A stretch of DNA of 64,000 nt from a bacterium (GCA_030698695.1 JAUYMR010000042.1:3174-67173), one strand, 5' to 3'; positions 976 through 43,548 are shown, numbered from the stretch's first letter. Numbers and translations are program-made. Notes: generated by a model from the letters alone, not told the origin.

Positions 976-2706
<1,731 letters not shown>

Positions 2707-33946: not shown

Positions 33947-34258
33947 TTAAAACGGCTGAAAAGGATTGGCCCGACCAATTACACCAACAGTCTGAACGGG
34001 TACGTAATTCGTCAGATTTCTGAACGCCTGACTGTTCAAAACTGTTGTTGAGTCAATCTCGGAATTATAAATTCGCTCTGCCGATTGCAATGGCGGAGGT
34101 ACGATAATATCAAAAGCCGGTGTCGGGGCGAAAAACAAATAATAGACAATCGCTCCTATTATCACTATCAAAACTATCAGCCCGATAAGCTTTCCCAAGC
34201 CAGATGATTTTTCTTTTCCTTCTATAATGTTTGCCATGTTATTGATAGTATGCGTCAA
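33947..34258 (-). CDS. small membrane-anchored protein in pilMNO block (PilP-like position), hypothetical
   Basis: 103 aa with one TM helix, overlapping the upstream gene by 20 nt. Confidence 0.3.
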   Translation of the reverse strand: MTHTINNMANIIEGKEKSSGLGKLIGLIVLIVIIGAIVYYLFFAPTPAFDIIVPPPLQSAERIYNSEIDSTTVLNSQAFRNLTNYVPVQTVGVIGRANPFQPF

Positions 34259-36529: not shown

Positions 36530-37267
36530 ATGCGAAATTTATCAAAAACCTTGTTGGTTGTCCGAAATCTATTCCTAAGTATACTATTTCCCAAATTTTG
36601 TTGTAATTGCCGCGAATTATTATCAGAGTCATATCAAGGATTGTGCTCAAATTGTTCATCTTTGATAAATTTTAACCAAACATCTTTTTGTTCTATCTGC
36701 AGAGCTCGCTTGCCCCAGAACAAAAAAATATGCCACAAAGATGCTCCATATATTTTAGCAGCGGCCACAAACTATAATAGCGCCGCGATTCGCAATTTGA
36801 TTTGCCAATATAAATATCGTCGTCGCCAAACGCTGGTTAACCCTCTGGCAAATATTGTAAATACATTCATTGATAAATCAGGACTTAAATCAATAATCTC
36901 AACCGATACTTTGATAATCCCGATACCTCTTCATCCCAAAAAACAACGAGAACGCGGCTTCAATCAAAGCCTGCTCCTGGCGCAATCATTATCTACAACT
37001 TTAAAATTACCGGTAGAAAATATATTGGAGCGTAAAAAACCTACGACCCCCCAAGCGGAAATAAATGATTTTGAAAAAAGAAAAATCAATGTAGCCGATT
37101 GCTTCGCCATTAATGAAACTGCGCGAATCACGAATAAAATTAAGAATAAGGACATTGTCTTAATTGATGACGTCTATACCTCCGGATCAACACTTAATGA
37201 AGCAGCTAAGATGTTAAAAATTTGTGGCGCCAAAAAGATTATCGCCCTAGTCATAGCTAAGGCATAA
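36530..37267 (+). CDS. comFC: ComF family protein (ComFC-like phosphoribosyltransferase, competence)
   Basis: An N-terminal Cys cluster (CCNCREL..CSNCSS..CSICRARL) and a C-terminal PRTase motif 'IVLIDDVYTSGSTLNEA'. Confidence 0.85.
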   Translation: MRNLSKTLLVVRNLFLSILFPKFCCNCRELLSESYQGLCSNCSSLINFNQTSFCSICRARLPQNKKICHKDAPYILAAATNYNSAAIRNLICQYKYRRRQTLVNPLANIVNTFIDKSGLKSIISTDTLIIPIPLHPKKQRERGFNQSLLLAQSLSTTLKLPVENILERKKPTTPQAEINDFEKRKINVADCFAINETARITNKIKNKDIVLIDDVYTSGSTLNEAAKMLKICGAKKIIALVIAKA

Positions 37268-37297
37268 TCTAAGGCCTTGCGATGGCCTTAGATTATG
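37263..37297. terminator. 14-bp perfect stem-loop spanning both convergent stop codons
   Basis: cataatctaaggcc-ttgcgat-ggccttagattatg. There is no U-tract on either side. Confidence 0.45.
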
Positions 37298-40200
37298 GGG
37301 TTGGCTCTTCAGCTGGTGCTGGCTCCTCGGGGGCTAGCGCCGGTTCTTCTGCTGGTGCTGGCTCTTCTGCTGGGGCCTCCTCTACGGCTGACTCTTCAGC
37401 TGGTGCTGGCTCTTCAGTTGACTCCGGCTGAGACTGAATCAATGACGAGCAAACACCAGAAGTGGTCTCAGCCAATCCATTGCGAACAAATAGACAATAT
37501 GGCTGATTAGTTTCGGTGTCATATAAAGTTATTCCCGTAGGAGCTGAAGATGAGCCAACTTCCAATTTCCCAACTATTAATTCTTTAATAGTCACCAAGG
37601 CGTCTCTCAACCAATTAGCCACTATATTGATAATCTGTGCTACCAGACCATCACCTTCTAAATTAAGACTGCTATTCTCTTGATTGACTGGAGATTCTAA
37701 CGAAACCGGCATCCAATAAGTAAGATTAACGAACATCAAGACCTTGCTATGATTTTCTTCGGTGGGGCCATCAAAATTGCTGATAGCATAACCCAAGATG
37801 CGGCCCGCTTGATTGGCTTTTTTAGCGACTCCGGCTTCCGAAGAAATAGTCAACGGGTCCCCTATAACGATAGGTCCATTTTCTAGATTCACTTTAACCG
37901 GAACACGACCAGAAAGAGCTAGCGGGGCTTTGTCGGGATCAGGACTATAAAAACCACTAAGAGCTTTGATGTGACTACCCTCAAACACGATGGCCGGGGA
38001 AGTTGAAATAACGCCTGCCAATTTTTCTGGCCCGGTAGCTTTTGATATATGAGCCGGACTGGAGCCGTCAAACATAACCACATCGCCACCAGTTAATGCT
38101 TCACTAGTTGGATAAAGCTCGGCAAGATCGTTTAACACACAATCACCTAAACTATTAGTATCACGGCATTGATCGTTAGCGGCTATAGAGATTGCCGTAT
38201 TGCCCTCATCGCTACCGCTAGCATTAATTAATAAAGCTGGAAGAGTATTGTTGTTGGTGTTGTCTATGGACAAAGTCCCTCCCGGCGAAGTAGTTCCAAT
38301 GCCGATTAAGCCGTTATCCAAAACCGTCATTATGGTCGTTGAGGCGTTATTAACTAATTGCAATAATTGACCGGTGCCCGTGCCTGCTCCCCAAACACTA
38401 AATTGAGAATAAGGAGTAGTGGTGCCGACAGCTACACGATTGCCAAAAGTGGCAGACGTCACATTTCCCAAACTGGTGCTGGTAGCCACGACACTGATAG
38501 GCCCAGCGCTCAACAATCCGTTAGTGCCTATATTGACGCCACCGCCAACCTGCAAACGACCGCCGATTTCAACATCTTTATATATGCGCGCCTCACCAGC
38601 TTCCAAAGAATGAATATTGGCGGCCACGGTCTCTATACCGGAAATATCTCTAACTTCTAGAACTCTAGTACCGGAGCCACCGGTCTGGGGACCTATGAAA
38701 AGACGCCTGCCGGAAATATCAAAAGATTCCGGATTAGGATTGGTAGTTGAGGCGCTACCTATTAACACTGGACTCGCTGGATCAAAGACGTCAAAAATAT
38801 GCATACTGGCTATGTCATCAAATGCCTTTCCAGCAATAACATATGCATAACGACCACGAACTTTTATGCCGGCTGGTCTTCTAAAAGCATTTGCCAATTG
38901 ACTGACTTTGGCCGGACTACTGGTAGAAATATCAAATATTTCTAACAATGGGTCATCGCCGCCGTCAGAAGTAACATAGGCATAATTTCCAACAACTTCC
39001 AAGTCATTATTAGTGACGGCATTCATATTGATGGGGGCACTACCGATAACCGCGGGCGTGCTGGTGGAAATATCCACCTTAGCCAAAGCGTTATTACCGC
39101 CGTCAAGAACGTATAAATAACGACCCAGAACTTTAGCGCCGCGCATATTGTTGCTAAAATCCATAGTGGACACAAGATTGGGAGCGATGGGATTGGTGAT
39201 GTCCCAGACAGCCAATGAAGGACTGTTGCCGAAAATATATGCCCTGCCACCAACCACAGTAACACCATTGCCACCGCCAGTATTGGTTGAGCTTATAATA
39301 GCCGGTCTCAAAGGATCAGATATATCAATTATCACCAAAGAAGTATTTATCTGATCCATAACATAGGCATAGCGACCAGCAATGGTTATAGACACCGGAT
39401 TGGGACCGCCTCCCGTAAGAGCAACTGTAGCAACTTGAGCCGGAGAAGTGGTAGAAATATCAAAGACCAGAATATTGCCGCCATTGGAATTAGTTAAATA
39501 AGCATATTTACCAGAAATAGCCATTTCTTGTGATTGAACACCATCGTCCAAAGTGGCATAGCCCAATAAACTCGGGGTAGAAGTTGCCGGATTGAATATG
39601 TTGCCCCAAACAACTAACCTATCCTTAACATTAGTAGCAACGGTTGACGTACCTATCAATAATTGACCGTTATTATTTATAGTGAGAGCAGGAATCGTAT
39701 TGAGTCCACCGCCAACCGAAGTTGGCGTAACAGTACTACCAGAAGTCCAAGTGCCCAAAGACGATCCTTTAGTAAAATCATCTGGGTCACGAGCAAATAT
39801 TCCCAAAGTGTTGTCATCTATCATCCCTAAATTGACCAAGTCCGTATGGTCATAATAATCGCTGTAGCCAGCTGAATCTATATTCCTCAAAATACGATAA
39901 CCTTCAACATCTGGATCGTCAGACGCATTCCACGTCATCGCAACCCAAAAATCAACGTCACATTTGGAACTATCAGTCTCTATATAATCAGAAGAATAGA
40001 TAACAGTTCCACTAACGGTTTTAAAAGAGTAAATTCGATAATCCAAACACCCAGAAACATAATCACCATCCCCGCCTATATTATTAGCAGTTAATGGTGA
40101 TCCTGGACCAGATATAGTCGACGCCGCTGTCGTTGAGGCAATCATACTTCCAAATTGCAAACTTCCGCTTGAAGTAGTAAGGGCAAGATTACCAGATGAA

Positions 40201-43200
40201 CTAATGCCACCCGATGTTATGTACGTCGTACCCGTACCAACTTGTAGAGTTCCCCTAACTAATAAATTATTCTCAATCGTGGAAGTGCCCGTGCCGCCGA
40301 CGTATAATCTGCCAGATAGGGCAAATTTTTCAGCCGGAGTAGATGTGCCGACCCCCAAGGCACCCATAAAAGTAGAAGTAGCTGTGGTAGATGTGGCTGT
40401 AAAATATTCTGCGGCAACCTGACCAACAATTGATAATTTTGCATATGGAGATGTGGTGCCGATGCCGACGTTGCCGTTGTTGAGAACAGTCATCACGCTG
40501 GTGGAAGCGTTGTTGACGAGTTGCAAAAGATTACCCGTTCCAGTTCCTGAACCCCAGACGGTGAGACGAGCATAGGGGGTTGAGGTGCCGATGGAGACGC
40601 GGTTGCCAAAGGAGGCGGAAATTATATCCCTAGTAGAGCTTGCGGACACAGCAATCGGGCCGTCGCTAAGAACGCCACCATAACCGACATTTAAGCCGCT
40701 ATAAACGTTGAGATTACCCGAAATATTAACACTATTGCGCACTTGAAGATCTCCGGCTTCTAAAGAGTGAACAATAGCCGATGTCGTTTCTATGCCGGAG
40801 ATGTCGTAAACTTGCAAACCTGAAGAACTTGAGAGTGCGTAAGCATAACGACCGGCAACTTTAACAGCTGAGGGATTGGCGCCGATTGTGATCGTAGATA
40901 CGACGACAGGAGATAGCGGATTAGAAACATCTATAGTCTGCAAACTGTTCGCGCCATAATTTATTACATAAGCATAGCGACCAGACACACTCAAACCATT
41001 CGGGTTGGTTTCTGTATCAATAGATGACAAAAGGACTGGTGTAACATAAGGATCGGAAACATCAAAAATATAAAGCTTGCTATCCGTATAATGGGTAACA
41101 TAGGCATAGCCATTGTTTACATAAATTTCCCCGGTATTGCTAGTCACGAAACTATAAGTGCTTATTTTTACCACATCATAAGGATCGCTCGCGTCATAGA
41201 TGGCTAGCTTGCTGGCGTTCCAATTAACCATATAAACATATTTACCAGAAACAAAGATTGATTTTGGATTCGCGTTGCCGGCAACTGAATCAGTCAAGAT
41301 GGGATTGGTCGGATTAGAAATATCAAAAACTCTCAAAGGGATTGTTGAATCTCCCACATAAGCATAGCGACCGGAAACAAATAGACCTTGAGCTATATTA
41401 AGAGTGGTAGTTGAAACAATAATGGGATTTTTAACATTAGAAATATCTACAATCTGAAAACTAATATCGGTAGCTATATACGCGTAATTACCAGCGATAT
41501 AAATTGTCCTAGGATTAGTATCCAAGGTAAGAGTTGAAACTAATGCCGGACTGCTCGTAGATATATCAAAAATTTGCAATGTTTCTCCGGTACCGACTAC
41601 ATAGGCATATCTTCCGACGATAGATAAATCATATGGAGCGGTCGCGCTAGCCGACCCCACCAAAGTCGGCGTAGAGGTAGCCGGATTGAAAATGTTGCCC
41701 CAAACGACAAGGCGGCTGTTTTTGGCTTCAGCTGTGGTAGCTAATGTTGAAGTGCCAATGAGGACTTGGCCTCCATATGGATTGAGTAGAAGTTTGCCGG
41801 TGGTGGTAGCTCCAGAGACGATAAGGTCTCCGGTGCCGGTGGTAGCGGCGGCTATTGGGCCGGCGAAGGTAGATGTAGCGGTGGTTGTGGAGGTGAAGTA
41901 GGCGCCAACGATTTCACCGACTACTGAGAGTTTGGCATATGGAGATGTAGTGCCGATACCAACGTTGCCGTTATTACTAATTCTTAACCATTCTGTGTAG
42001 GTAGATAGCGAGTCATTTAAAATACCAAAGGCAAGGGCTCCGGCTGACGACGAAGCATAAACATGCTTAAGATCTGTTCCGCCACCTATATCAGTTAGTA
42101 ACAGTTGAGGACTGGTGGTCGCAGCTATTTGTAATTTATTGTTAGGAGTTGAAGTCCCAATACCTACACTGTCAGTAAGAGTGTCTAAAACCACGACTGT
42201 TCCATTATCACCCCAACCGCCAACGCCGCCCCAAGCGCCGTTAACATAAGCGCGCAAGCCATTGGTGTCGGTAGAATAATATAAAGTACCGTTGCCCACC
42301 CCAGACGGATCGCCACTCAATGATCCTAAAGTCAGCGAACCAGATAAAGTTGTAGTAGCCGCGCTAAGTATTCCTGAAAATGTTGAAGTAGATGTATTGG
42401 AAACTATTAAATTGGTGATAGTTGTCGTGCCCAATGTTCCGGTAAAATTAGTGATGCCGTTGGTAATACTAGCCGTTCCGCTCACGGTCAAGCTATCAAC
42501 CGACAAGCTGGAAATAGTATTAGTAAAATTCGGACTGGTGATATTGGGAGAATTGATAGTCGGCGAAGAAATAGTTAAATAATTAGTGTCTCCAACTGAC
42601 CCCAATGAATTGATACGATTGCTTAACGCTAAACTTTTATTGAGTTCGGCAATGGCTTCTGATTTGTTTTCATTTTGGACTTGAAGCAATCCAATTTGTG
42701 ATTCCAATAAACTAAGACGAGATAGCAATTCGTTGCTGGCTAGAAGACCGGAACTAACTTCTCTGATAATAGTCGTAGTCGTTGGTTGTAGTTGGGATTG
42801 AATTAACAAATTATTGCTAGTCGTAACATTTTGTATATTTGTATCTGGCGAGTCTTGTCCGGAATCTATAACAATATCCGCGTCTGAAGATGTGAACCAT
42901 TCCCCAATAGCATAAAAAATATTTTTAGCTTTTAATAACGCCGAATCAAAAATCTCTCCGAGAGTAGGCCAGGTCCTGGGTTTAAAAATTGGCGCTTGAT
43001 TTTGTTGTGTCTGGTTTTGAGAAGAAACAAATTCTAAAGAATTTATATCATATATATCCGGTATTGTCGGGGAGGTCGGATTCAGATCTGTTATTTGTGT
43101 TTGAGCTTGTGCTAGATAGTTATTAGCAACCGACAATGAACTGGAAACGTTGGTGGTTTGTTTTATATCAACACCGACCGACGACACCGGAGAAATCGGT

Positions 43201-43442
43201 TTTTCAACAACTACTATTGTGGTTTTTGATGGAGCAAAAAAATCAACAATGACGCTAACTGTATTTTTAGCGCCATCCACGACACCGCCGATTATTTCAT
43301 TTATTATTGTGGCCGATGACTGATCTAATCCTTGTACCCGATTCAATTGTCCGTCAGAAGCCGCTTGTGAATTAGAAAACAAAAACAGACCAATCGTTAG
43401 GCTAAAAAATATCAATCCTAAAATAACAATGTTTTTTATCAT
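37293..43442 (-). CDS. giant secreted/surface protein (2049 aa) with LVIVD beta-propeller repeats, tail-fibre-like repeats and a PAEEP-repeat C-terminus
   Basis: Signal/TM 'MIKNIVILGLIFFSLTIGLFLFSNSQA', then two blocks of recurring 'G[RNK]YAYV..LQIFDIS.P..' units (LVIVD-type). 'NGNVGIGTTSPYAKLS[VI]VG' is repeated three times, and modules around aa ~860-990 and ~1640-1770 are duplicated. The C-terminus is (EEPAPA)n. Confidence 0.85.
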   Translation of the reverse strand: MIKNIVILGLIFFSLTIGLFLFSNSQAASDGQLNRVQGLDQSSATIINEIIGGVVDGAKNTVSVIVDFFAPSKTTIVVVEKPISPVSSVGVDIKQTTNVSSSLSVANNYLAQAQTQITDLNPTSPTIPDIYDINSLEFVSSQNQTQQNQAPIFKPRTWPTLGEIFDSALLKAKNIFYAIGEWFTSSDADIVIDSGQDSPDTNIQNVTTSNNLLIQSQLQPTTTTIIREVSSGLLASNELLSRLSLLESQIGLLQVQNENKSEAIAELNKSLALSNRINSLGSVGDTNYLTISSPTINSPNITSPNFTNTISSLSVDSLTVSGTASITNGITNFTGTLGTTTITNLIVSNTSTSTFSGILSAATTTLSGSLTLGSLSGDPSGVGNGTLYYSTDTNGLRAYVNGAWGGVGGWGDNGTVVVLDTLTDSVGIGTSTPNNKLQIAATTSPQLLLTDIGGGTDLKHVYASSSAGALAFGILNDSLSTYTEWLRISNNGNVGIGTTSPYAKLSVVGEIVGAYFTSTTTATSTFAGPIAAATTGTGDLIVSGATTTGKLLLNPYGGQVLIGTSTLATTAEAKNSRLVVWGNIFNPATSTPTLVGSASATAPYDLSIVGRYAYVVGTGETLQIFDISTSSPALVSTLTLDTNPRTIYIAGNYAYIATDISFQIVDISNVKNPIIVSTTTLNIAQGLFVSGRYAYVGDSTIPLRVFDISNPTNPILTDSVAGNANPKSIFVSGKYVYMVNWNASKLAIYDASDPYDVVKISTYSFVTSNTGEIYVNNGYAYVTHYTDSKLYIFDVSDPYVTPVLLSSIDTETNPNGLSVSGRYAYVINYGANSLQTIDVSNPLSPVVVSTITIGANPSAVKVAGRYAYALSSSSGLQVYDISGIETTSAIVHSLEAGDLQVRNSVNISGNLNVYSGLNVGYGGVLSDGPIAVSASSTRDIISASFGNRVSIGTSTPYARLTVWGSGTGTGNLLQLVNNASTSVMTVLNNGNVGIGTTSPYAKLSIVGQVAAEYFTATSTTATSTFMGALGVGTSTPAEKFALSGRLYVGGTGTSTIENNLLVRGTLQVGTGTTYITSGGISSSGNLALTTSSGSLQFGSMIASTTAASTISGPGSPLTANNIGGDGDYVSGCLDYRIYSFKTVSGTVIYSSDYIETDSSKCDVDFWVAMTWNASDDPDVEGYRILRNIDSAGYSDYYDHTDLVNLGMIDDNTLGIFARDPDDFTKGSSLGTWTSGSTVTPTSVGGGLNTIPALTINNNGQLLIGTSTVATNVKDRLVVWGNIFNPATSTPSLLGYATLDDGVQSQEMAISGKYAYLTNSNGGNILVFDISTTSPAQVATVALTGGGPNPVSITIAGRYAYVMDQINTSLVIIDISDPLRPAIISSTNTGGGNGVTVVGGRAYIFGNSPSLAVWDITNPIAPNLVSTMDFSNNMRGAKVLGRYLYVLDGGNNALAKVDISTSTPAVIGSAPINMNAVTNNDLEVVGNYAYVTSDGGDDPLLEIFDISTSSPAKVSQLANAFRRPAGIKVRGRYAYVIAGKAFDDIASMHIFDVFDPASPVLIGSASTTNPNPESFDISGRRLFIGPQTGGSGTRVLEVRDISGIETVAANIHSLEAGEARIYKDVEIGGRLQVGGGVNIGTNGLLSAGPISVVATSTSLGNVTSATFGNRVAVGTTTPYSQFSVWGAGTGTGQLLQLVNNASTTIMTVLDNGLIGIGTTSPGGTLSIDNTNNNTLPALLINASGSDEGNTAISIAANDQCRDTNSLGDCVLNDLAELYPTSEALTGGDVVMFDGSSPAHISKATGPEKLAGVISTSPAIVFEGSHIKALSGFYSPDPDKAPLALSGRVPVKVNLENGPIVIGDPLTISSEAGVAKKANQAGRILGYAISNFDGPTEENHSKVLMFVNLTYWMPVSLESPVNQENSSLNLEGDGLVAQIINIVANWLRDALVTIKELIVGKLEVGSSSAPTGITLYDTETNQPYCLFVRNGLAETTSGVCSSLIQSQPESTEEPAPAEESAVEEAPAEEPAPAEEPALAPEEPAPAEEPTP

Positions 43443-43548
43443 TAACTAGCGCGTATTAAAATGATTATTTGCTTTCTATGCTTCTGCTTATAATTATAGC
43501 AAACTTAAGGCTTTTAGATCATTCATCTTGTGTGGATAACTTGATCGC

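What the first reader, a model, noticed from the sequence alone, without database searches (positions are those of the whole stretch)
37293..43442. 2049-aa secreted giant protein with two LVIVD beta-propeller blocks and phage-tail-fibre-like repeats, directly abutting the type IV pilus/competence locus
The protein has a signal peptide, two blocks of repeated 'G[RNK]YAYV...LQIFDIS.P' units (LVIVD repeat, a cell-surface beta-propeller) and three copies of 'NGNVGIGTTSPYAKLS[VI]VG'. A large internal duplication shows as two near-parallel ~130-aa stretches around aa ~860-990 and ~1640-1770 (minus-strand nt ~40860-40470 and ~38520-38130), '..ISGIETTSAIVHSLEAGDLQV..' versus '..ISGIETVAANIHSLEAGEARI..'. 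The C-terminal tail is acidic (EEPAPA)n. Such giant adhesin-like proteins next to pili fit a surface-attachment or host-contact role, plausible for an episymbiotic lifestyle. The domain combination of propeller plus tail-fibre repeats is unusual.
Basis: partly seen in the sequence, partly recalled or inferred. Interest (0 to 1): 0.62.

Follow-up and report, generated by a model that had tools for sequence, protein, structure and literature searches.

The report
Phage-tail-fibre-like surface fibre with propellers
This 2049-residue gene most likely encodes a long three-chain surface fibre, built from the same parts as phage tail fibres and carrying two rings of variable beta-propeller "heads", that a probable ultra-small (Patescibacteria-type) bacterium could use to grip other cells; hundreds of relatives exist, so it is a variant of a known kind, not a one-off.

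The parts
43359..43442 (-). aa 1-28: the only hydrophobic segment in the protein (MIKNIVILGLIFFSLTIGLFLFSNSQA|AS). It is either a Sec signal peptide or a signal-anchor.
   Evidence: Kyte-Doolittle maximum of the whole protein at aa 1-23. No lipobox, LPXTG or prepilin motif. Cleavage is not predicted by a dedicated tool.
42768..43358 (-). aa 29-225: lineage-specific N-terminal region of unknown fold.
   Evidence: No Pfam hit. No match in 48 homologs by phmmer. 22-32% identical to ortholog P0001.
42603..42767 (-). aa 226-280: coiled-coil-like heptad segment.
   Evidence: Highest heptad a/d hydrophobic score in the protein: 0.625 against 0.22 +/- 0.12 for random windows (a crude measure). 47% identical to P0001.
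41667..42602 (-). aa 281-592: S/T/G-rich fibre shaft. It includes one complete MAT-type beta-helix unit (aa 419-512, ending NGNVGIGTTSPYAKLSVVG) and the pre-propeller linker.
   Evidence: Profile A4 of this unit hits only Bdellovibrio MAT fibres in the PDB: 8ond_A 4.3e-22, 8oml_A 4.8e-13, 8ojn_C 3.4e-9. 72-76% identical to P0001.
40803..41666 (-). aa 593-880: LVIVD beta-propeller 1 (7 blades).
   Evidence: Pfam PF08309. Seven anchors. The AlphaFold2 model has 28 strands with mean pLDDT above 90 in nearly every 10-residue block (lowest 85). Foldseek gives only generic 7-8-bladed propellers. 40% identical to P0001.
40413..40802 (-). aa 881-1010: post-propeller 'neck' (ISGIETTSAIVHSLEAGDLQV...VGYGGVLSDG) plus stalk with two GIGT capping motifs.
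   Evidence: The neck matches 26 of the 49 sequences searched (the giant plus 48 homologs); in the hits inspected it lies directly after a propeller. No PDB relative. 66-68% identical to P0001.
40113..40412 (-). aa 1011-1110: mid-fibre shaft.
   Evidence: Contains the GIGT-type motif GALGVGTSTPAEKF. Poorly conserved with P0001.
39768..40112 (-). aa 1111-1225: divergent FN3-like insert with Cys pair 1132/1161. Absent from ortholog P0001.
   Evidence: Exhaustive phmmer gave 33 weak hits. The best two are FN3-repeat proteins (fn3 188-190 bits), matched around W..D..V.GY.I.R. Only partly alignable to P0001.
39558..39767 (-). aa 1226-1295: pre-propeller-2 linker, a duplicate of aa 558-592.
   Evidence: Self-BLAST 558-678 vs 1259-1385, 49% identity, E = 9e-30.
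38646..39557 (-). aa 1296-1599: LVIVD beta-propeller 2 (7 blades). It is the most divergent module.
   Evidence: Seven anchors. Only 28% identical to P0001.
38130..38645 (-). aa 1600-1771: neck 2 plus stalk 2. It ends with Cys pair 1759/1768 and the predicted cleavage site N1771|D1772.
   Evidence: Self-BLAST with neck/stalk 1. Position of the DLAE motif.
37668..38129 (-). aa 1772-1925: phi29-gp12-type (Peptidase G2-like) intramolecular chaperone/autocleavage domain with a beta-tulip fold.
37446..37667 (-). aa 1926-1999: amphipathic helix plus a Cys-bridged mini-module (GITLYDTETNQPYCLFVRNGLAETTSGVC). Function unknown.
   Evidence: Present in 17 of the 49 family proteins searched (the giant plus 48 homologs), always 42-148 aa from the C-terminus, after either G2-like or S74 chaperones. 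79% identical to P0001. No Pfam hit.
37296..37445 (-). aa 2000-2049: acidic Pro/Glu/Ala-rich low-complexity tail.
   Evidence: Composition. 18-nt imperfect tandem repeat. Analogous P/T/S/E/D tails in the other 16 proteins with the mini-module.
43443..43548 (-). Upstream intergenic region with an extended -10-like TGCTATAAT. Possibly the gene's own promoter.
   Evidence: Sequence read directly. The consensus scan overall is not above shuffles, so this is weak.
37243..37264 (-). Terminator-like hairpin 29 nt after the stop codon.
   Evidence: pattern match only.

Best explanation
The gene encodes a cell-surface, probably homotrimeric fibre assembled from phage tail-fibre/tailspike building blocks.

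Proposed mechanism:
1. It is exported by its N-terminal Sec-type signal and probably held at the envelope by its N-terminal part.
2. Three chains intertwine into a MAT/S74-type trimeric beta-helix shaft. I estimate this at roughly 40-60 nm by scaling from Bd2133.
3. The shaft is interrupted at two levels by a ring of three 7-bladed LVIVD beta-propellers and, between them, by an FN3-like knob.
4. Folding and trimerisation are templated by a C-terminal phi29-gp12-type (Peptidase G2-like, beta-tulip) intramolecular chaperone. This chaperone is predicted to cut itself off between N1771 and D1772.
5. The fast-evolving propellers, and the exchangeable insert, are the ligand-binding heads. They most plausibly recognise surface structures of a host or partner cell.

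Shown: domain identities and homologies, duplication, synteny, and mosaic conservation.
Inferred: trimer, autocleavage, anchoring end, adhesive function and ligand.
For: - LVIVD: 166 bits against a 20.2 cutoff. There are 7 + 7 blades. The confident propeller model has 28 strands.
- The GIGT unit profile matches only the crystallographically trimeric Bdellovibrio MAT fibres: 8ond 4.3e-22 and four more entries. The MAT paper describes trimeric beta-helices with a V-G-G/N-pi-x-x-P-x-x-x-L capping loop, related to the T5 and K1F fibres, acting in prey recognition (PMC10769870).
- At least 419 IMG/VR stretches are 33-43% identical. In 44 complete viral ORFs the domain lies at the extreme C-terminus with a YADLAE.Y motif. 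The four ORFs scanned match PHROG tail-fibre families.
- gp12 D4 is an autochaperone for trimer assembly (bioRxiv 10.1101/216911).
- Mosaic conservation against syntenic ortholog P0001: scaffold, chaperone and mini-module are 66-79% identical, propellers 40% and 28%, and the insert is exchanged. Neighbouring genes are 52-79% identical.
- Extracellular hallmarks: a single N-terminal hydrophobic segment and three local Cys pairs.
- A related locus encodes a prepilin-LVIVD propeller fusion. This shows LVIVD heads displayed on an extracellular filament.
Against: - No direct evidence of trimerisation. The fibre parts fold with low confidence as a monomer. That is expected for a trimeric fibre but is not proof.
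- The protein's own C-terminus does not reach any Pfam threshold. The profile-to-gp12 E-values are marginal (0.015). The fold match rests on a predicted model from an 18-sequence alignment.
- Viral homologs end about 3 residues after the chaperone core. This protein continues for about 125 aa with a conserved mini-module and tail. Processing or topology may therefore differ. The most conserved, C-terminal end could be the anchored end.
- No recognised wall- or membrane-anchoring motif: no LPXTG and no C-terminal TM; the Pfam scans returned no wall-binding family such as SLH.
- LVIVD has no experimentally defined ligand. Structural matches of the propeller are generic.
- No PHROG hit for the protein itself. 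No tblastn hit of the stalk in 50,697 phage genomes.
- No expression or localisation data.
Confidence: 0.58

Rival explanations
1. Same fibre, opposite topology. The N-terminal signal is cleaved. The conserved C-terminal block (chaperone + Cys-bridged mini-module + acidic P/E tail) stays attached, cleaved or not, and is the envelope-proximal anchor or sorting element. The variable N-terminal region is then the distal tip.
For: - The C-terminal mini-module is the best-conserved part against the ortholog (79%), and the N-terminal region the worst (22-32%).
- The mini-module plus low-complexity tail recurs in 17 of 49 family proteins behind two different chaperone types, as a shared anchoring or sorting element would.
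- Viral homologs lack this extension.
- SQA|AS fits a signal-peptidase site.
Against: - In phage fibres and MAT fibres the chaperone end is distal and is removed.
- The tail has no hydrophobic or known wall-binding motif.
- The mini-module is missing from 32 of 49 family members.
Confidence: 0.15
2. An enzymatic tailspike-like depolymerase. The LVIVD propellers are catalytic, as the 6-bladed sialidase propeller is in the trimeric phage K1F endosialidase. They would degrade host capsule or cell-wall polymers rather than merely bind.
For: - The overall plan of propeller + trimeric beta-helix stalk + C-terminal chaperone equals the endosialidase plan (own knowledge; K1F is cited as a structural relative of MAT stalks).
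- Weak sub-threshold similarities of the propeller to lactonase and SBP56 families.
Against: - No hit to any glycosidase, lyase or sialidase family at threshold.
- The propellers diverge fast (28-40% against the ortholog), with conservation concentrated in the structural GRYAYV/DIS.P motifs. That pattern is more typical of binding heads than of a conserved active site.
- Foldseek hits are generic scaffolds.
Confidence: 0.12
3. A structural envelope or S-layer-type protein of the bacterium itself, not a host-recognition device.
For: - LVIVD repeats were first described in archaeal and bacterial cell-surface proteins (PMC2447325).
- The protein is very large and rich in S/T/G.
Against: - A chaperone-terminated fibre architecture and the fastest divergence in the locus are atypical for a lattice protein.
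- The family is highly variable in length and domain content, 1100-3500 aa.
Confidence: 0.08
4. A dedicated accessory or tip adhesin of the adjacent type IV pilus/competence machinery.
For: - Adjacency to ComF-PilMNO-PilB-PilT-PilC is conserved in the syntenic genome L001.
- Homolog P0019 also lies 2.5 kb from PilB/PilC, and that locus has a prepilin-LVIVD fusion.
Against: - No prepilin leader or N_methyl motif.
- comF on the opposite strand separates it from pilM. It appears to have its own terminator-like hairpin.
- Five of six other homolog loci have no pilus genes within 8-10 kb.
Confidence: 0.05
5. A tail-fibre gene of an integrated prophage or phage-like particle.
For: - Phage-type chaperone and fibre modules.
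- GC of 0.445 against about 0.40 in the flanks.
Against: - The flanks are housekeeping genes (P-type ATPase, thymidine kinase, pilus genes) in conserved synteny with another genome.
- There are no phage structural, integrase or terminase genes among the characterised neighbours.
- The protein has an export signal and no PHROG match.
Confidence: 0.02

Closest known systems
Bdellovibrio bacteriovorus MAT (mosaic adhesive trimer) fibres, e.g. Bd2133 (PDB 8OND) and Bd3182 (Caulton et al. 2024, PMC10769870)
   Same: Both are cell-encoded rather than phage-encoded and carry a signal peptide. They share long trimeric beta-helix shafts built of units ending in the VGIGT..P...L capping motif (profile E = 4e-22). 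They share mosaic exchange of adhesive modules and occur in a bacterium that must attach to other bacteria.
   Different: - MATs are about 1000 aa and carry the adhesive domain at the C-terminal tip, or an S74 chaperone.
- This protein is twice as long and has two internal LVIVD propeller tiers plus an FN3-like insert.
- It uses a G2-type instead of an S74-type chaperone and has a further C-terminal mini-module and tail.
- The conserved ~130-aa N-terminal MAT domain was not tested.
- The organism is different (probably a monoderm-like Patescibacterium).
Phage phi29 pre-neck appendage (tailspike) gp12, C-terminal autochaperone D4 (PDB 3GQH/3GQK; Pfam PF11962 Peptidase_G2)
   Different: - This sequence is too divergent to reach the Pfam threshold.
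- It is followed by about 125 extra residues.
- The upstream body is MAT-type beta-helix plus propellers, not the gp12 pectin-lyase-like helix.
- Cleavage is untested.
Tail-fibre proteins of uncultivated phages (IMG/VR) ending in the same 'YADLAE.Y...GRVPVKV' domain
   Same: 33-43% identical over about 120 aa. Some also carry the GIGT capping motif just upstream (L040-L042). The four scanned match PHROG tail-fibre families.
   Different: - The viral proteins have a median stop-to-stop ORF length of 518 aa and end 0-13 aa after the domain.
- No mini-module or tail extension follows the domain in the viral ORFs; signal peptides and propellers were not looked for.
Phage K1F endosialidase (trimeric tailspike: beta-propeller + triple beta-helix stalk + C-terminal S74 chaperone)
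   Same: It is an architectural precedent for propellers carried on a trimeric, chaperone-terminated fibre. (The architecture is from own knowledge; the stalk relationship to MATs is cited.)
   Different: - Its propeller is a 6-bladed sialidase, not 7-bladed LVIVD.
- It has an S74 rather than a G2 chaperone.
- It has one propeller tier.
- It is virion-borne.
LVIVD repeat cell-surface proteins (PF08309; Adindla et al. 2004, PMC2447325)
   Same: Clear HMM membership, about 42-aa repeats, and a surface context.
   Different: The family is defined only by the repeat. No ligand or function is established, and the fibre context is not part of its description.

Membership tests
LVIVD repeat / beta-propeller (Pfam PF08309) | Score above Pfam's gathering threshold. 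| tested here: met
   166.3 bits against a cutoff of 20.2, E = 8e-50.
LVIVD repeat / beta-propeller (Pfam PF08309) | Tandem ~42-aa repeats that close into a propeller. | tested here: met
   7 + 7 anchors at 41-45-aa spacing. The AlphaFold2 model of aa 593-880 has 28 strands with mean pLDDT above 90 in nearly every 10-residue block (lowest 85). Propeller 2 was not modelled.
MAT-type / S74-associated trimeric beta-helix fibre (Bdellovibrio MAT family) | Beta-helix units with the capping-loop motif (V-G-G/N-pi-x-x-P-x-x-x-L). | tested here: met
   Profile of aa 419-512 plus homolog units: 8ond_A 4.3e-22, 8oml_A 4.8e-13, 8ojn_C 3.4e-9, 8on4_A 1.2e-6, 8ol4_A 1.1e-4. There are no other significant PDB hits. 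Nine GIGT-type motifs are present.
MAT-type / S74-associated trimeric beta-helix fibre (Bdellovibrio MAT family) | Homotrimeric, intertwined assembly. | not testable with these tools
   Only monomer prediction was available. Fibre segments have low pLDDT as a monomer.
MAT-type / S74-associated trimeric beta-helix fibre (Bdellovibrio MAT family) | Conserved ~130-aa beta-rich domain directly after the signal peptide. | not tested
This protein's N-terminal region (aa 29-225) has no detectable relatives among 48 homologs.
MAT-type / S74-associated trimeric beta-helix fibre (Bdellovibrio MAT family) | C-terminal S74 chaperone (SDxxxK) or a terminal adhesive tip domain. | tested here: not met
   No PF13884 hit. 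The C-terminus is G2-like instead. Adhesive-type domains are internal rather than terminal.
Peptidase G2 / phi29 gp12-type intramolecular chaperone (Pfam PF11962) | Pfam HMM match above threshold. | tested here: not met
   No hit even at E <= 10 for aa 1760-2049. However, 6 of 18 close family members match PF11962 (best 3.7e-6), and homolog P0057 carries a precomputed PF11962 hit.
Peptidase G2 / phi29 gp12-type intramolecular chaperone (Pfam PF11962) | Fold of the gp12 C-terminal fragment (beta-tulip). | tested here: met
Peptidase G2 / phi29 gp12-type intramolecular chaperone (Pfam PF11962) | D-x-A-E motif at the domain's N-terminal boundary, aligned with gp12 S691|D692-F-A-E695. | tested here: met
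   D1772-L-A-E1775 aligns with DFAE, and 3gqh chain residue 1 is that D. D-x-[AG]-E is present in 16 of 16 family sequences covering the site. The catalytic role of Asp/Glu is from my own knowledge of MEROPS G2.
Peptidase G2 / phi29 gp12-type intramolecular chaperone (Pfam PF11962) | Autoproteolytic release after trimerisation. | not testable with these tools
   Needs expression, SDS-PAGE, mass spectrometry and D1772/E1775 mutants.
Type IV pilin / minor pilin / pilus tip protein | Class III (prepilin) leader G|[FM]xxxE / N_methyl domain. | tested here: not met
   No PF07963 hit and no motif by regex. The pilin-like ORFs of this locus have it by eye, as does the L002 LVIVD protein.
Prophage tail fibre | Embedded among phage structural and lysogeny genes. 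| tested here: not met
   Neighbours are a P-type ATPase, thymidine kinase, ComF and pilus genes, in conserved synteny with GCA_030689595.1. No PHROG hit.

The most novel reading that the evidence does not exclude
Patescibacteria may have domesticated the phage tail-fibre toolkit on a large scale as their principal host-recognition apparatus. That toolkit comprises the MAT-type trimeric beta-helix and S74- or G2-type self-cleaving chaperones. In this reading, LVIVD propellers serve as interchangeable receptor-binding heads displayed either on such fibres or on type IV pilins, as in the prepilin-LVIVD fusion in L002. The conserved, so far unnamed C-terminal Cys-bridged mini-module plus acidic or hydroxylated tail would be a lineage-specific envelope-anchoring or sorting signal that keeps the 'chaperone end' on the cell.
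Probability: 0.2. Interest if true: 0.75.

Novelty: new variant of a known kind. Interest (0 to 1): 0.5.

Why it matters
How ultra-small episymbiotic bacteria find and hold their hosts is largely open. So far, type IV pili and unnamed 'adhesins' are implicated in the few cultivated Saccharibacteria (PMC10633639). Giant surface proteins are noted in Vampirococcus (PMC8080830).

This locus gives a concrete, testable candidate. It is a fibre whose scaffold and self-cleaving chaperone are recognisably phage- and MAT-like, and whose propellers diverge far faster than the rest. That makes the propellers the obvious place to look for host specificity.

It also shows two further points. A G2-type chaperone missed by Pfam terminates many such proteins. 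And an unnamed C-terminal module is shared across the family.

Tried and rejected
- PHROGs scan of the whole protein: no family.
- NCBIfam: only a sub-threshold lactonase hit.
- Pfam on six non-propeller segments at E <= 10: nothing meaningful.
- Full-length phmmer against the PDB: only a weak 8ond lead (E = 0.63). It became significant only with a unit profile.
- tblastn of stalk aa 880-1070 against 50,697 phage genomes: no match.
- Neck-module profile against the PDB: only insignificant resemblance to GlmU left-handed beta-helix (E ~7).
- Foldseek of the propeller model: generic WD40/BamB-type hits with no functional clue.
- Exhaustive phmmer of the middle insert: only weak FN3-repeat hits. 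It was not modelled.
- Word-index search with the C-terminal mini-module: nothing (the query was too short for that tool).
- Genome-contig scan with the protein: one distant locus only (L008).
- Exact-sequence look-up: the giant protein is not in the 15-billion-protein collection, although its neighbour PilB is (MDP3901896.1). The PilB contig retrieved was only 3.5 kb. I could not see how the source annotates this ORF.
- Literature: no paper in the searchable library links Patescibacteria with LVIVD or intramolecular chaperones.
- Pilus-component and prophage readings were rejected for the reasons given under the rival explanations.

Full report
**Observation**

The window holds an uninterrupted 2049-codon ORF on the minus strand, 37293-43442.
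- Pfam gives LVIVD (PF08309) 166.3 bits against a cutoff of 20.2, plus Beta_propel (PF09826) 43.8 bits.
- Motif counting finds seven blade anchors at aa 610-864 and seven at aa 1311-1578.
- Self-comparison shows that a whole cassette is duplicated. The cassette comprises the pre-propeller linker, the propeller, a post-propeller 'neck' and a stalk ending in a GIGT motif. Aa ~558-1010 matches ~1259-1726, with up to 53.5% identity and E = 1e-48.
- Only two motifs fit NGNVGIGTTSPYAKLS[VI]VG exactly (aa 491 and 989). A third, at aa 1710, is degenerate, and six further GIGT-type motifs exist.
- The tail is E/P/A-rich and encoded by an imperfect 18-nt tandem repeat.
- DNA-level repeats inside the gene are at most 85% identical over at most 96 nt. 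The syntenic ortholog has the same plan. Repeat collapse is therefore unlikely, though reads were not available.

**Surroundings**

- Downstream lie a ComFC-like gene on the opposite strand (36530-37267) and then PilM, PilN, PilO, a 103-aa ORF, PilB, PilT and PilC.
- Beyond PilC lie pilin-like ORFs with prepilin-type N-termini and a membrane ORF at the position of the prepilin peptidase of L001 (read by eye and synteny, not scanned).
- Upstream lie a P-type ATPase and thymidine kinase.
- The whole arrangement is syntenic with GCA_030689595.1 (L001). There, neighbours are 52-79% identical, but the giant protein is only 42-43% identical.
- The window's PilB is MDP3901896.1 from a MAG labelled only 'bacterium'. 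Named homologs of the giant are almost all Patescibacteria. The organism is therefore probably a Patescibacterium, by inference.

**What the unannotated two-thirds are**

(a) The GIGT motif
- It closes a ~90-aa unit at aa 419-512.
- A profile of this unit from 12 copies matches only Bdellovibrio MAT fibres in the whole PDB: Bd2133 8OND at E = 4.3e-22, plus 8OML, 8OJN, 8ON4 and 8OL4.
- Those crystal structures are intertwined trimeric beta-helices. Their 'capping loop' consensus is the same motif, and their authors relate them to the phage T5 L-shaped fibre and the K1F endosialidase stalk (PMC10769870).

(b) The C-terminus, aa 1772-1925
- It has no Pfam hit itself.
- A profile of it and 17 relatives hits only phi29 gp12 in the PDB, exactly at TWS|DFAEYFE. 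The crystallised released fragment 3GQH starts at that Asp.
- Six of 18 relatives match PF11962.
- D-x-[AG]-E is present in all 16 relatives that cover the site.
- At least 419 IMG/VR stretches encode 33-43%-identical copies. In 44 complete viral ORFs the domain lies at the extreme C-terminus, with YADLAE.Y. The four scanned match PHROG tail-fibre families. Some of the viral proteins also carry a GIGT motif just upstream.
- A local HMM finds the same domain near the C-terminus of 25 of 48 giant homologs.

(c) Aa 1111-1225
- This is a divergent FN3-like insert. It is missing from the ortholog.

(d) Aa 226-280
- This is the most heptad-periodic stretch of the protein (a crude measure).

(e) After the chaperone
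- An amphipathic helix, a Cys-bridged mini-module (GITL[YF]D..TG.PYC....NG.....G.C) and a low-complexity tail follow.
- This block recurs in 17 of 49 family proteins, always near the C-terminus, and behind either G2-like or S74 chaperones. It has no Pfam family.

**Propellers**

- Propeller 1 models as a closed 7-bladed propeller: 28 strands, mean pLDDT above 90 in nearly every 10-residue block.
- Structural neighbours are generic.
- Domain-wise comparison with the syntenic ortholog is the most informative functional clue.
  - MAT unit 72%, linker 76%, necks 57-68%, stalk 66%, chaperone 68%, mini-module 79%.
  - Propeller 1 is 40% and propeller 2 is 28%.
  - The N-terminal region is 22-32%, and the middle insert is exchanged.
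- This is the conserved-scaffold, variable-head pattern of receptor-binding proteins.

**Mechanism proposed**

1. The protein is exported through Sec.
2. Three chains are brought into register by the C-terminal beta-tulip chaperone and fold into a trimeric beta-helix shaft.
3. Two tiers of three LVIVD propellers and an FN3-like knob project from the shaft.
4. The chaperone then probably cuts at N1771|D1772.
5. The variable propellers bind surface structures of another cell.

Homologies, duplication, synteny and differential conservation are shown. Trimer, cleavage, anchoring end, length (~40-60 nm, scaled from 370 aa = 142-150 Å in Bd2133) and ligand are inferred.

The ~125-aa extension after the chaperone is absent from viral homologs. 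It is the main unexplained element. It keeps open a reversed topology in which the conserved C-terminal block is the cell-proximal anchor.

**Comparison with the known**

- It works like a MAT fibre or a phage tailspike.
- It fails the strict membership tests for S74-terminated MATs (no S74) and for Pfam Peptidase_G2 (below threshold).
- It meets the fold and motif tests for a gp12-type chaperone and the repeat test for MAT beta-helices.
- K1F endosialidase is an architectural precedent for propellers on a chaperone-terminated trimeric stalk (own knowledge).
Of the 120 best hits, 22 combine LVIVD with Peptidase_S74.
- Pilus adjacency is lineage-specific. It is present in L001 and near P0019 (L002). 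It is absent in five other loci.
- L002 encodes a prepilin-LVIVD fusion inside its pilus cluster. This independently shows LVIVD propellers being displayed on an extracellular filament.

**Verdict**

This is a real, intact gene. It is a new variant of a known kind, the tail-fibre-like trimeric surface adhesin. It uses a G2-type chaperone, two internal propeller tiers and an unnamed C-terminal module. It is of moderate interest as a concrete host-recognition candidate for Patescibacteria. I found no publication describing this family in the searchable library.

Noticed in passing
L002 19600-21063 (+) (JGI 3300027835, locus of homolog P0019): A 487-aa protein with a canonical type IV prepilin N-terminus (KQG|FSLIEIILGV...) is fused to an LVIVD beta-propeller. 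It sits in a pilus cluster next to PilB, PilC and a pilin-like gene. It may be a pilus-displayed propeller adhesin, possibly a PilY1 analogue.
   Followed up: partly
window 37446-37667 (aa 1926-1999), and 16 homologs: An unnamed C-terminal module: an amphipathic helix plus 'GITL[YF]D..TG.PYC[LV].[IV].NG.....G.C'. It is always followed by a 42-148-aa low-complexity P/T/S/E/D tail. It is found after both G2-like and S74 chaperones in 17 of 49 family proteins. It has no Pfam family and its function is unknown.
   Followed up: partly
L005 17067-21597 and L004 7244-9445 (loci of homologs P0027 and P0007): In two unrelated loci the giant homolog is directly followed by a ~715-733-aa Laminin_G_3 protein. 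In L005 there are also three 23S_rRNA_IVP/bAvd-type genes, which are accessory genes of diversity-generating retroelements. This hints at targeted hypervariation near such fibres.
   Followed up: no
window 38001-42000: GC (0.445-0.448) and GC skew (-0.08 to +0.07) inside the gene differ from the flanks (GC ~0.39-0.41, skew ~-0.15). This is probably due to the S/T/G/A-rich composition (40% of residues) rather than foreign origin, but it was not tested.
   Followed up: no
window 37293-43442: The exact 2049-aa product is absent from the 15-billion-protein collection, although the neighbouring PilB (MDP3901896.1) is present. The public annotation may use another start (in-frame TTG/GTG at codons 10, 21, 33, 55) or may not call the gene.
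   Followed up: partly
window 33947-34258 (-): A 103-aa ORF with no Pfam family lies between PilO and PilB. It is conserved in position and is 57% identical in the syntenic genome L001 (96 aa). It may be an uncharacterised pilus-assembly component.
   Followed up: no
homologs P0016 and P0005: Two giant homologs carry two tandem copies of the G2-like chaperone domain near the C-terminus.
   Followed up: no
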